This document shows, in pieces, positions 42,901 to 45,900 of a DNA stretch of 64,000 nucleotides (within the stretch, counting starts at the first letter, position 1; each line of letters starts with the position of its first letter). Source of the stretch: Octopus sinensis (Eukaryota); assembly GCF_006345805.1 (NCBI RefSeq), contig NW_021836159.1:6064-70063 (forward strand). The letters run 5' to 3'. Position numbers: made by a program.

Positions 42901-45900
42901 AATATATCTATAAGCATGCAAAGAAGTCGGGGATTAATGGTGTCCAACATAGATATGAGAGACACATTCCTTACTGAGTGATATCTGGATCTCACATAAC
43001 CTAATTTCTACCAACAAATAAAGCTTATGTTCGCAATTGCATTGAATACCACATTAATTTCGGCATTGGGATTACATGGTACAAAAAGATATTTAGAAAA
43101 GTAAAACAAAAATCATTCAAACGAAGTGAAATATATTATCATTGTCCGGCAGTCGTTTACTTAATACATCTTTATTTCTATTATCAAATGATCTTATCTT
43201 AATTAAATTTCTATTTGAGAATAATTTTTGACGTTTTGTAGATGACCTGTGGGCTAAATTAGTAATTGTAAATCAATCATACTAATCGGATAGTGATTTT
43301 GACTCAATAACGATAATACTGTATTAAACAGGTCTGCTATAATTATAGTTAGCTATAAGACGTCTTAAGTGTGCTAGCATTGCCACCGAGTTGTAATTTA
43401 GAACAGTTGGAAAAAAACGCACAACATTATCTTATTTACAAAACTGAATCTTTTTTGTGTTTGTATTTAAGTAAGGCATTTATGGATTTAGTGAATGTTG
43501 TTTTATTAAATAGTAAATCAAGTAGATTTATTCTGTTAATTTGTTTTTGTTTTGAATCTAGTTCTTTCAGCATGTTTGTCAGCACCTTGTATGAACGGTG
43601 GTCAATGTTCGAATGCAGGTACATCATTTGTGTGCCAATGTCTTCCTAACTTTTACGGTCCTCGTTGTCAAATTGAAGATAAATGTCGCTCAGTGACTTG
43701 CCTAAATGGTGGCCGATGTACTACAACTAACTTTGTTGCGAAATGTAATTGCCCATCTGGATTTACTGGTCCACGATGTGAAAATCCCATTAATTCCTGT
43801 CAATCTTCACCGTGTCAAAATGGTGGAACATGCTATCCAAATGGAGTTCAATTCACTTGTCGTTGCCCTGTTGGACTCAGAGGACTACGATGTGAACAAC
43901 CATTTTGCTCAGCAAATATCTGTCAAAATGGTGGAACATGTCAGCTTGTAAACAATCAAGTTTCTTGCATATGTCTCAATGGATTTCAAGGTAATAGATG
44001 CCAGGTGCCGATTCAGTGTTATCCACCATGTCAAAATGGAGGAATTTGTAACACTAACACAAGAATGTGCAACTGCCCTCATGGATTCGTTGGCCCAGAT
44101 TGTTCAAGAAGAGATGATTGCGCGTTAAATCCAAATATCTGTCAAAATGGTGGAACATGTCAGCTTGTAAACAATCAAGTTTCTTGCATATGTCTCAATG
44201 GATTTCAAGGTAATAGATGCCAGGTGCCGATTCAGTGTTATCCACCATGTCAAAATGGAGGAATTTGTAACACTAACACAAGAATGTGCAACTGCCCTCA
44301 TGGATTCGTTGGTCCAGATTGTTCAAGGAGAGATGATTGCGCGTTAAATCCAAATATCTGTCAAAATGGTGGAACATGTCAGCTTGTAAACAATCAAGTT
44401 TCTTGCATATGTCTCAATGGATTTCAAGGTAATAGATGCCAGGTGCCGATTCAGTGTTATCCACCATGTCAAAATGGAGGAATTTGTAACACTAACACAA
44501 GAATGTGCAACTGCCCTCATGGATTCGTTGGTCCAGATTGTTCAAGAAGAGATGATTGCGCGTTAAATCCAAATATCTGTCAAAATGGTGGAACATGTCA
44601 GCTTGTAAACAATCAAGTTTCTTGCATATGTCTCAATGGATTTCAAGGTAATAGATGCCAGGTGCCGATTCAGTGTTATCCACCATGTCAAAATGGAGGA
44701 ATTTGTAATACTAACACAAGAATGTGCAACTGCCGTCATGGATTCGTTGGTCCAGATTGTTCAAGAAGAGATGATTGCGCGTTAAATCCAAATATCTGTC
44801 AAAATGGTGGAACATGTCAGCTTGTAAACAATCAAGTTTCTTGCATATGTCTCAATGGATTTCAAGGTGATAGATGCCAGGTGCCGATTCAGTGTTATCC
44901 ACCATGTCAAAATGGAGGAATTTGTAACACTAACACAAGAATGTGCAACTGCCGTCATGGATTCGTTGGTCCAGATTGTTCAAGAAGAGATGATTGCGCG
45001 TTAAATCCAAATATCTGTCAAAATGGTGGAAGATGTCAGCTGGTAAACGATCAAATCACTTGCGCATGTATAAATGGCTTTTATGGAGATAGGTGCCAGT
45101 TCCCAAGTCTGTGCTCTCCAAAATGTCAAAATGGAGGAACTTGTAATGTAAACACAAGAATATGCGACTGTCCTCCCGGATTTGGTGGTCGAGATTGTTC
45201 GAGAAGAGATCCTTGTGCTTCAAAGCCATGTTTGAATAATGGCCAATGTATTGTACAAAATGATTTTGACTACATTTGTGCGTGTCGCCAAGGATGGAGT
45301 GGTAAAAACTGTGGGAGTACCACTACGCCTTGTTCGAATAACCCCTGTTTGAACGGTGGACAGTGCTATCCTATGGGCAACAGCTTTACTTGTTATTGTC
45401 CACAAGGCTGGACTGGACAGAGATGCGGCAGTCAAACCAATCCATGCACTCCAAATCCTTGCCAAAACAACGGCCAGTGTAGCATGTTTGGACCAAATGG
45501 ATTCACTTGCACTTGTGCTAGTGGATGGTCTGGCAAGTTTTGTAACGAAAGTGGTTCAATCTATTGTCCGTCTCGCCATTGTTCTAACGGAGGAACCTGC
45601 ATCCACACTGCCAACCAATTACGTTGCCGATGTCCATTTGGCTTTAAAGGAATCTACTGTGAAGGTAAGCATAGCTGTTTAATGTTACATAATTTGTACT
45701 TGTGAACCGGATCCATAATTCGATTTTGATTTCTAGCGACAATCTTTTCACTTTACTTAGGTATGCGTTCAAAAATTGTATGGACATTAATTAGAATATA
45801 CTGTTTCCTATTTCTATCTTTTCCAGAAATTAATATAAAACCAAATTACTATTACACATAATTATAATACAGTTAATAATTTTAAAACTTTTGACAATTT

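What the first reader, a model, noticed from the sequence alone, without database searches (positions are those of the whole stretch)
43921..45234. Intra-exonic accordion: a 219-bp two-EGF module amplified six times, giving 21 EGFs in B versus 8 in A
Five units are about 99% identical. Diagnostic variants (CCT to CGT in units 4-5, AAT to GAT in unit 5) suggest stepwise recent unequal crossing-over; the sixth unit is older and diverged. The whole array sits in one 2.1-kb exon, so copy number can change without touching splice sites. This sets the distance between the C2-DSL head and the chitin anchor, like a tunable spacer (inference).
Basis: partly seen in the sequence, partly recalled or inferred. 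Interest (0 to 1): 0.7.

Follow-up and report, generated by a model that had tools for sequence, protein, structure and literature searches.

The report
Octopus gene's amplified two-EGF module
A 219-base stretch coding for two EGF domains has been copied head to tail inside one exon of an octopus Delta-like gene; it is real, but it is an ordinary way for repeat proteins to grow and shrink.

Summary
A 219-bp (73-codon) unit is repeated 5.9 times at 43913-45210 without indels. Units 1-5 differ by 1-3 nt of 219, and unit 6 differs by 45-46. All lie in frame in one 2,103-nt exon (43562-45664) that codes for 19 EGF domains.

The window is Octopus sinensis. It holds a tandem array of at least three paralogs (A, B, start of C; period about 35 kb). 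They encode secreted C2(MNNL)-DSL-EGFn-CBM14 proteins with no membrane anchor.

The same two-EGF module occurs 2-3 times in relatives from O. bimaculoides and O. vulgaris. The first-type and last-type units are old. First-type units were amplified separately in O. sinensis B (x5) and in an O. vulgaris paralog (x2).

Gene A's short form is not a baseline. Its third EGF is a three-part mosaic left by in-register deletions. So the exon both expands and contracts: homologous stretches hold 4, 6, 11, 13, 13 and 19 EGFs.

The most likely mechanism is unequal homologous exchange between in-frame repeats. The "tunable spacer" role is plausible but untested. Copy number could not be checked against reads. 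This is a new member of a known kind, of moderate to low interest.

The parts
43913..45226 (+). Whole array: six in-frame 219-nt units. Each codes for an a-type EGF (Cys spacing 6/4-5-8-1-8), a 5-residue linker, a b-type EGF (3-5-6-1-8) and another 5-residue linker.
43913..45031 (+). Young block: 5.11 periods at 98.6-99.5% identity (units 1-5 plus the first 24 nt of unit 6). The 24 nt at 43913-43936 and 45008-45031 are identical. This stretch is the likely site of the first unequal exchange.
45008..45226 (+). Unit 6, the old last-type unit (79% identical to units 1-5). It groups with the last units of the O. bimaculoides and O. vulgaris proteins.
43562..45664 (+). Gene B exon 8: 2,103 nt, 19 EGF domains, phase 1 at both ends, AG acceptor and GT donor.
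   Evidence: 100% identical to residues 292-992 of P0001
27052..27108 (+). Gene B exon 1: ATG followed by a hydrophobic N-terminus, read by eye as a signal peptide.
28015..28204 (+). Gene B exon 2: first half of the C2/MNNL domain. A second copy with the same translation lies at 29527-29716.
   Evidence: (MNNL E 7.4e-6, 26 bits against a cut-off of 22.5)
35867..35949 (+). Gene B exon 3 (C2 domain, middle).
38127..38294 (+). Gene B exon 4 (C2 domain, end).
39418..39562 (+). Gene B exon 5: DSL domain.
   Evidence: (DSL E 5.1e-12)
40891..41001 (+). Gene B exon 6: first EGF after the DSL domain.
41896..42015 (+). Gene B exon 7: second EGF after the DSL domain.
46461..46478 (+). Gene B exon 9: an 18-nt micro-exon between the EGF exon and the CBM14 exon.
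48242..48417 (+). Gene B exon 10: CBM14 (peritrophin-A) domain, with the stop codon at 48415-48417. No membrane-spanning segment follows.
   Evidence: (CBM_14 E 7.6e-14)
8296..8970 (+). Gene A exon 8: the contracted paralog of the EGF exon, 675 nt with 6 EGFs.
8532..8621 (+). Gene A hybrid third EGF, a three-part mosaic. The 5' part matches B's EGF3. The middle 58 nt match the b-EGF of unit 6 (54 of 58). The 3' part matches B's EGF16. These are the scars of in-register deletions.
11627..11802 (+). Gene A last exon: CBM14 domain plus stop codon.
   Evidence: (E 2e-12)
58182..63324 (+). Start of a third paralog, C: ATG at 58182 and a C2 exon matched at 63109-63324. The rest lies beyond the window.

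Best explanation
The feature is a genuine, recent, in-frame tandem amplification of a two-EGF module. It sits inside the large EGF exon of paralog B of an Octopus sinensis gene family. The family encodes secreted proteins built as signal peptide, C2/MNNL, DSL, a run of EGFs and a C-terminal CBM14 domain.

Shown here:
- The ancestral exon already held a first-type and a last-type copy of the module.
- In B the first-type copy now stands five times at about 99% identity.
- The repeat border lies in the C1-C2 loop of the a-type EGF, and 219 nt is 73 codons. Every junction therefore rebuilds a complete six-cysteine EGF and keeps the frame.
- Homologous stretches of relatives hold different numbers of modules.
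- Paralog A, and a further O. sinensis paralog, are in-register contractions of the same exon.

Inferred:
- The mechanism is unequal homologous exchange between misaligned repeats. It may have started at the 24 nt shared by the first and last units. Replication slippage is the alternative, and later exchanges among the copies probably followed.
- The direct consequence is a change in the length, and possibly the valency, of the EGF stalk between the head and the CBM14 domain.
- That this length is selected for (a tuned spacer) is only a hypothesis. I put it at about 0.3.
For: Repeat: period 219, 5.9 copies, 0% indels. Units 1-5 differ by 1-3 of 219 nt and unit 6 by 45-46.

Frame and domains: 702 open codons and 19 six-cysteine EGFs. 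Pfam EGF E 2.2e-87 with 13 stretches.

Borders: identity starts at 43913 and drops at 45032.

Species and gene: 100% identical over 702 residues to P0001, Octopus sinensis.

Module in relatives: only 4 of the 120 listed hits (497 with E<=0.001 among 673 candidates) are 69% or more identical to the module. All four are Octopus, and the next best hit is 44%. Unit counts are 6, 3, 2 and 3.

Tree of all 14 modules:
- The last units of all four proteins group together (87/86). With O. bimaculoides P0002 unit 2 added, support is 96/97.
- O. sinensis B units 1-5 form one clade (98/96).
- O. vulgaris P0004 units 1 and 2 form their own clade (100/99), so that duplication is independent.

Contractions: A's third EGF is a DNA mosaic. 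P0230 keeps only 4 EGFs in the homologous stretch.

Age: the young units differ by 0.5-1.4%. Synonymous divergence between A and B is 0.07-0.43 over five exon segments.

Gene integrity: all 10 coding exons of B have AG/GT borders, and their lengths sum to 3,171 nt, a multiple of three.

Architecture: MNNL, DSL and CBM_14 hits. The whole-protein alignment of P0002 to JAG1 4cbz covers residues 28-331, and to DLL4 5mvx residues 27-330.
Against: - No reads, second assembly or second individual could be examined, so the count of six rests on one assembly. The database lists the source contig of P0001 as only 70,063 bases.
- RefSeq models across this array are chimeric, which shows the locus is hard to handle.
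- Sites 81 and 166 conflict under a simple duplication tree, so gene conversion has played some part.
- No expression, chitin-binding or Notch-binding data exist here.
- dN/dS between A and B is 0.29-0.79 on short segments. This is compatible with relaxed constraint, so the change in length may be neutral.
Confidence: 0.8

Rival explanations
1. The copy number is an assembly artefact. Near-identical 219-nt copies were over- or under-counted, and the true gene has fewer or more units.
For: Tandem copies at 99% identity are the kind of sequence that assemblers miscount. The source contig is listed as 70,063 bases, while a related gene (P0230) sits on a 105.9-Mb contig. No reads were available.
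Against: All five young units can be told apart by at least one substitution (smallest pairwise difference is 1). There are no indels and the frame is intact. The whole array is only 1.3 kb. Relatives in two other species carry 2-3 copies of the same module, one pair 93% identical.
Confidence: 0.08
2. The array is old. Its copies look young only because gene conversion keeps homogenising them (concerted evolution), not because of a recent amplification.
For: Sites 81 and 166 show three haplotypes plus the ancestral one, which needs an exchange or a repeated mutation. T at position 140 is shared by units 4 and 6. Identity between A and B jumps from 95% to 81% across the EGF exon, which hints at conversion in this family.
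Against: Identity falls sharply at 45032, and unit 6 stays 21% diverged. The closest O. bimaculoides protein has three units that are 73-79% identical to each other. A net gain of units in B is therefore still needed.
Confidence: 0.15
3. The change in length has no tuned function. The family is evolving under relaxed constraint, and EGF number drifts up and down neutrally.
For: dN/dS between A and B is 0.29-0.79. Paralogs with 4 and 6 EGFs in the homologous stretch keep open frames. The head exon has only 6 credible relatives among 1.84 billion representatives, a sign of a young, fast-changing family.
Against: Every cysteine of all 19 EGFs is kept. All of B's splice sites and frames are intact. 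These show the protein is maintained, but they do not show that its length is selected.
Confidence: 0.4
4. The module is a binding unit rather than a spacer, so amplification raises valency (avidity) for some partner.
For: The amplified piece is a fixed pair of unlike EGFs. The same pair is what was duplicated independently in O. vulgaris P0004. Björklund et al. note that selection for multi-domain functional units may favour such duplications (PMC1553488, passages seen).
Against: No partner is known. First units of O. sinensis B and O. bimaculoides P0002 are 81% identical, much like the head at 86%. So the module shows no special conservation.
Confidence: 0.15

Closest known systems
Expansion of protein domain repeats by tandem duplication of several domains at a time within one large exon (Björklund, Ekman, Elofsson 2006, PMC1553488; abstract and passages seen)
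   Same: A multi-domain unit (two EGFs) was duplicated in the middle of a repeat region, all inside one large exon, so exon shuffling is not involved. The paper describes exactly this pattern as common.
   Different: Here the copies are young enough (1-3 differences in 219 nt) for the borders, the 24-nt shared stretch and the deletion scars in a paralog to be read directly.
Canonical Notch ligands Delta, Delta-like and Jagged/Serrate (C2-DSL-EGFn-TM-tail)
   Same: N-terminal C2/MNNL domain, a six-cysteine DSL domain, then EGF repeats. PMC5538765 (passages seen) gives this architecture with 16, 8 or 7 EGFs.
   Different: There is no membrane anchor or cytoplasmic tail; the protein ends in a CBM14 domain. 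The stretch conserved in DLL1, DLL4 and JAG1 DSL domains is replaced. EGF number is highly variable.
Mollusc 'Delta2' (PMC8166818; passages and section 10 read)
   Same: A mollusc-specific offshoot of Delta that has lost C-terminal parts. It was reported for O. bimaculoides and O. vulgaris.
   Different: Delta2 is described as a Delta cut short by early termination. The paper contains no occurrence of the word 'chitin'. Its sequence identifiers are in supplements I could not open, so I cannot say whether this family was among its 138 DSL genes.
Coding minisatellites with variable repeat number, such as the kringle IV-2 repeats of human LPA or mucin repeats (recalled, not looked up here)
   Same: Long, near-identical, in-frame tandem units whose number changes by unequal exchange and alters protein length.
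   Different: Length variation among individuals, which defines those cases, has not been shown here. Only variation among paralogs and species has.
Peritrophin-A / CBM14 chitin-binding proteins
   Same: The last exon matches CBM_14 above the curated cut-off in both A and B. It has six cysteines spaced 12-5-9-12-7, read from the sequence.
   Different: I found no paper joining CBM14 to a DSL head: 0 papers for 'DSL domain' plus 'chitin-binding' and 0 for octopus plus fibropellin plus chitin. Those searches cover open-access texts only.

Membership tests
EGF-like domain tandem repeat | Six cysteines with EGF spacing in every repeat, recognised by the EGF profile | tested here: met
   19 of 19 segments in exon 8 fit the six-cysteine pattern. 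Pfam EGF E 2.2e-87 with 13 stretches.
In-frame tandem duplication (coding minisatellite) | Head-to-tail units, length a multiple of three, no indels, high identity | tested here: met
   Period 219 = 73 codons, 0% indels. Units 1-5 differ by 1-3 nt.
In-frame tandem duplication (coding minisatellite) | Unit number varies among individuals of the species | not testable with these tools
Canonical DSL Notch ligand (Delta/Jagged) | N-terminal C2 (MNNL) domain | tested here: met
   Exon 2 alone matches MNNL at E 7.4e-6, 26.0 bits against a cut-off of 22.5. P0002 residues 28-331 align to JAG1 4cbz residues 5-306. An AlphaFold model was too poor to add anything.
Canonical DSL Notch ligand (Delta/Jagged) | DSL domain | tested here: met
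   Pfam DSL E 5.1e-12, 46.3 bits against a cut-off of 24.2. It aligns to DLL1 4xbm at E 1.3e-5.
Canonical DSL Notch ligand (Delta/Jagged) | Conserved receptor-facing stretch of the DSL domain | tested here: not met
   In the alignments, DLL1 and JAG1 share C-R-P-R-D-D-x-F-G-H-[FY]-x-C, and both DLL4 chains share the D-H-F-G-H-Y part. The octopus exon has C-D-I-P-T-S-E-Q-T-R-F-Q-C instead. Which of these residues touch Notch is recalled (Cordle et al. 2008, cited in PMC5538765) and was not tested.
Canonical DSL Notch ligand (Delta/Jagged) | Single-pass membrane anchor and cytoplasmic tail | tested here: not met
   The stop codon at 48415-48417 comes five codons after the last CBM14 cysteine. 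P0001, P0002, P0003 and P0230 all end there.
Canonical DSL Notch ligand (Delta/Jagged) | Binds and activates Notch | not testable with these tools
   No octopus Notch sequence was fetched and no complex prediction was run.
CBM14 / peritrophin-A chitin-binding proteins | CBM_14 profile match with six cysteines | tested here: met
   E 7.6e-14 for B and 2e-12 for A, both above the 22.1-bit cut-off.
CBM14 / peritrophin-A chitin-binding proteins | Binds chitin | not testable with these tools
   This needs a pull-down with the recombinant domain.
Mollusc Delta2 (PMC8166818) | Membership of the Delta2 clade as defined in that paper | not tested

The most novel reading that the evidence does not exclude
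The array is a living coding minisatellite whose unit number differs among individual octopuses. On this reading, recurrent gain and loss of EGF modules is driven by selection on the reach or valency of an octopus-restricted family of secreted, Notch-ligand-derived proteins. These would be tethered to chitinous extracellular material through their CBM14 end. That would be a lineage-specific co-option of the C2-DSL head to a chitin matrix. Tethering could stand in for the membrane anchor that canonical ligands need, or the head may have taken on a new partner.
Probability: 0.15. Interest if true: 0.7.

Novelty: new member of a known kind. Interest (0 to 1): 0.35.

Why it matters
- It is a clean, dated example of how a repeat protein changes length. 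One 64-kb window shows a fresh five-fold expansion with readable borders, and beside it a paralog carrying the scars of contractions in the same exon.
- It yields a cheap test. A PCR across 43.8-45.3 kb would show a ladder in 219-bp steps if the array varies among animals.
- It flags RefSeq models that mix exons of neighbouring paralogs.
- It points to a protein architecture (C2-DSL head, variable EGF stalk, CBM14 tail, no membrane anchor) that I found only in Octopus. I found no paper describing it in the two searches made.

Tried and rejected
- **The listing of cluster members.** I asked for the nine members of the P0001 cluster, which might have shown other unit numbers.
- **AlphaFold2.** I modelled P0230 with a five-sequence alignment. 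Mean pLDDT was 49.1 and pTM 0.24, and the head (residues 1-111) and the CBM14 end (480-538) were below 50. This was too poor for a fold search, so none was run.
- **First module tree.** My pattern missed the first unit of P0003, so the tree held 13 of 14 modules. I repeated it with all 14.
- **Paper searches with no result.** Octopus + fibropellin + chitin gave 0 papers. 'DSL domain' + 'chitin-binding' gave 0 papers. A search on EGF repeats and unequal crossing over gave nothing specific. A search for the O. sinensis assembly paper gave only papers that cite it, so I make no statement about the sequencing method.
- **Genome contigs** holds only bacteria and archaea and was not used.
- **Not run.** No complex prediction was run, because I make no binding claim.
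- **Pseudogene reading for B rejected.** All ten coding exons have canonical borders and open frames.
- **Reading A as the ancestral short form rejected.** All three outgroup proteins (P0002, P0003, P0004) carry EGF3, at least two modules and EGF16, and A's third EGF is a mosaic.
- **Exon-by-exon searching.** All window-derived queries were single exons. Full-length comparisons used database proteins as returned.
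Full report
**1. The observation**

Tandem Repeats Finder reports one strong array in the region: 43913-45210, period 219, 5.9 copies, 95% matches, no indels, score 2281. The repeat finder gives six copies spaced exactly 219 nt apart (family D4).

In register from 43913, units 1-5 differ pairwise by 1-3 of 219 nt. Unit 6 differs from them by 45-46 nt. The next 219 nt differ by 160-163, so the repeat ends there.

The frame starting at 43561 stays open for 702 codons. With splice sites, the exon is 43562-45664, 2,103 nt. The window has no N.

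**2. What the unit codes for**

Each 73-codon unit has four parts:
- an a-type EGF, with cysteine spacing 6-5-8-1-8 (4-5-8-1-8 in the first copy);
- a 5-residue linker;
- a shorter b-type EGF, with spacing 3-5-6-1-8;
- another 5-residue linker.

The exon holds 19 EGFs: three before the array, twelve in it and four after it. The repeat border falls in the C1-C2 loop of the a-type EGF. The first cysteine of each a-type EGF therefore comes from the end of the previous unit, and every junction rebuilds a full six-cysteine domain.

**3. The gene and the locus**

The exon is 100% identical to residues 292-992 of P0001. NCBI names that protein 'neurogenic locus notch homolog protein 1-like isoform X3' of Octopus sinensis.

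Self-comparison of the window shows a tandem duplication with a period of about 34-36.7 kb and 77-95% identity. There are three gene copies:
- A, whose exons 3-10 lie at 1959-11802;
- B, complete at 27052-48417;
- C, which starts at 58182 and runs off the window.

Gene B has ten coding exons, all with AG/GT borders. Their lengths sum to 3,171 nt. Every search with window sequence was made exon by exon, and the joined step was left out.

By exon, the domains are:
- a hydrophobic N-terminus (exon 1, read by eye as a signal peptide);
- the C2/MNNL domain (exon 2 alone: Pfam MNNL E 7.4e-6, above the cut-off);
- DSL (E 5.1e-12);
- two EGFs in two exons;
- the 19-EGF exon;
- an 18-nt micro-exon;
- a CBM14 chitin-binding domain followed directly by the stop codon (E 7.6e-14).

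The related full-length protein P0002 aligns to solved structures of JAG1 (4cbz, residues 28-331) and DLL4 (5mvx, residues 27-330). Its C-terminal part (residues 733-839) aligns to part of a chitinase chain, 6g9c.

There is no membrane anchor.

**4. Relatives**

A search with two units against proteins of 257-2000 residues found 497 hits with E<=0.001 among 673 candidates. Of the 120 listed, only four are 69% or more identical and the next is 44%. The four are:
- P0001 (O. sinensis);
- P0002 and P0003 (O. bimaculoides);
- P0004 (O. vulgaris).

A search with the head of P0002 found five clusters among 197 candidates, all Octopus. It added P0230 (O. sinensis, 538 residues, on a 105.9-Mb contig).

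A full HMMER scan of 1.84 billion representatives with exon 2 gave only seven hits at E<=0.001. Five belong to the same family: P0230, P0004 and three partial or frame-shifted models, P0232-P0234. One is a 93-residue fragment at 48% identity. One is an unrelated repeat protein. The family is thus narrow and fast-changing.

**5. The accordion**

Module counts are 6 in B, 3 in P0002, 2 in P0003 and 3 in P0004. EGF counts in the stretch homologous to the big exon are 19, 13, 11 and 13, against 6 in A and 4 in P0230. For the database proteins the exon limits are inferred by homology, not seen.

A maximum-likelihood tree of all 14 modules shows the following:
- The last units of all four proteins group together (87/86). 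With P0002 unit 2 added, support is 96/97.
- P0003 unit 1 groups with P0004 units 1-2 (99/97).
- P0004 units 1 and 2 are each other's closest relatives (100/99; 93% identical).
- B units 1-5 form one clade (98/96). Their best outside match is P0002 unit 1 (81%).

So a first-type and a last-type unit predate the split of the paralog lineages. First-type units were then amplified independently in O. sinensis B and in O. vulgaris P0004, and a last-type unit was apparently duplicated in P0002.

**6. Contraction**

Gene A aligns to B at 95% up to A 8566 / B 43832 and again from A 8583 / B 45274 at 81%. At the DNA level A's third EGF is a mosaic:
- Its first 44 nt match B's EGF3.
- The next 58 nt match the b-type EGF of unit 6 (54 of 58). 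This includes 27 identical bases where EGF3 differs.
- The rest matches the end of B's EGF16 (32 of 42).

All three outgroup proteins have EGF3, at least two modules and EGF16. A is therefore a derivative of a longer form, made by in-register deletions between EGFs. It is not the starting state. P0230 shows a further, different contraction to four EGFs.

**7. Age and mode**

The young block runs from 43913 to 45031 (5.11 periods). The 24 nt at its start and at the start of unit 6 are identical. That is where a first unequal exchange between the old first and last units would leave no trace.

The young units differ by 0.5-1.4%. Synonymous divergence between A and B is 0.07-0.43 over five exon segments. 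So the amplification is much younger than the A/B gene duplication, or the copies are being homogenised.

Using unit 6 as outgroup:
- G at position 81 (Asp) is ancestral and kept in unit 5.
- A (Asn) is derived in units 1-4.
- G at position 166 (Arg) is derived in units 4-5.

Together with the ancestral type this gives all four combinations. At least one exchange within units, or a repeated mutation, must have occurred. The history is therefore not a simple ladder.

Unequal homologous exchange is the best fit. This is inference from the pattern, not something observed.

**8. Function**

Lengthening the exon by 1,428 nt relative to A adds 13 EGFs between the head and the CBM14 domain. That much follows from the sequence. 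Whether it matters is open.

- None of the amplified EGFs carries the calcium-binding start motif (read by eye; only the second EGF after DSL gave a weak EGF_CA hit in P0002 and P0003). The linkers are 5 residues, so the stalk may be flexible rather than a rigid rod (inference).
- In the DSL alignments, DLL1 and JAG1 share C-R-P-R-D-D-x-F-G-H-[FY]-x-C and DLL4 shares the H-F-G-H-Y part. The octopus exon has C-D-I-P-T-S-E-Q-T-R-F-Q-C. Notch binding is therefore uncertain.
- Background on force and immobilised ligands comes from PMC10796381 and PMC8391929. I saw only the search listing and the start of each abstract.
- dN/dS between A and B is 0.29-0.79 on short segments. This fits a maintained but quickly changing secreted protein, and also fits neutral length drift.

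**9. Comparison with what is known**

Björklund et al. (PMC1553488; abstract and passages) report three relevant points. Domain repeats usually grow by duplication of several domains at once. [quoted passage not shown] Many repeats lie within one large exon, so exon shuffling cannot explain them. The present case is a textbook instance, only unusually fresh.

The Lophotrochozoa Notch survey (PMC8166818; passages and section 10) describes a truncated mollusc 'Delta2' and never mentions chitin. Its sequence lists are in supplements I could not open.

A review of invertebrate Notch signalling (PMC10970066; passages) has no occurrence of 'chitin'. The only cephalopod ligand entry I saw is Delta/Jagged of a squid.

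**10. What stayed unchecked**

- No reads, no second octopus assembly and no transcripts were available.
- The other members of the P0001 cluster could not be listed.
- The AlphaFold model was too poor to use.

**11. Verdict**

This is a new member of a known kind. It has a more interesting but unproven side: the head-stalk-chitin architecture, and possible length polymorphism among individuals.

Noticed in passing
window 1959-6709 with 43561-48414 (protein P0001); also P0230 and P0232: The RefSeq model P0001 is a chimera of two neighbouring paralogs. Residues 81-291 match gene A's exons at 93-100%. Residues 292-1056 match gene B's exons at 100%. The model skips A's own EGF and CBM14 exons and B's head exons. 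P0230 carries two copies of the second-EGF exon. P0232 starts with an out-of-frame reading of an EGF exon. These are either read-through transcripts or annotation errors.
   Followed up: partly
window 27185-28450 and 28648-29962: A tandem duplication of about 1.5 kb inside gene B's first intron region (94.8% over 1,316 nt) carries a second copy of exon 2. The 192-nt stretch gives the same translation and has the same splice borders, at 28015-28204 and 29527-29716. Use of both copies would insert the first half of the C2 domain twice. An assembly artefact is not excluded.
   Followed up: partly
window 17325-22217 (- strand) and 52528-54779 (- strand): A non-LTR retrotransposon lies between A and B, with reverse transcriptase and zf-RVT at 17325-18983 and an endonuclease/exonuclease/phosphatase domain at 19719-20738. 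A broken copy lies at the matching place between B and C, so the element was part of the duplicated 35-kb unit. A third decayed copy lies around 22.7-24.7 kb.
   Followed up: partly
window 8297-8566 vs 43563-43832, and 8583-8972 vs 45274-45666: Identity between A and B is 95% in the 5' part of the EGF exon but 81% in the 3' part. Flanking introns are 89% upstream and about 82-83% downstream. This step change suggests gene conversion or a different history for the two halves.
   Followed up: no
window 28015-28206 (exon 2, C2 domain): This exon has only 7 hits at E<=0.001 among 1.84 billion representative proteins. Canonical Delta and Jagged are not among them, although Pfam MNNL still recognises the exon. 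The head is very divergent.
   Followed up: yes
window 39418-39562 (DSL exon): The DSL domain keeps its cysteines. However, in the printed alignments it replaces the stretch shared by DLL1, DLL4 and JAG1.
   Followed up: partly
window 26030-26317 (- strand): A weak match to a MULE transposase domain (E 7.9e-5, 23.5 bits, below the 27.6-bit cut-off) lies just upstream of gene B's first exon.
   Followed up: no
whole window, e.g. 16742-16987, 28774-29028, 32307-32878, 58449-32: Very dense microsatellites (TAGA, CA, AT and ACAT runs) lie in the intergenic and intronic parts, at matching places in the duplicated units.
   Followed up: no
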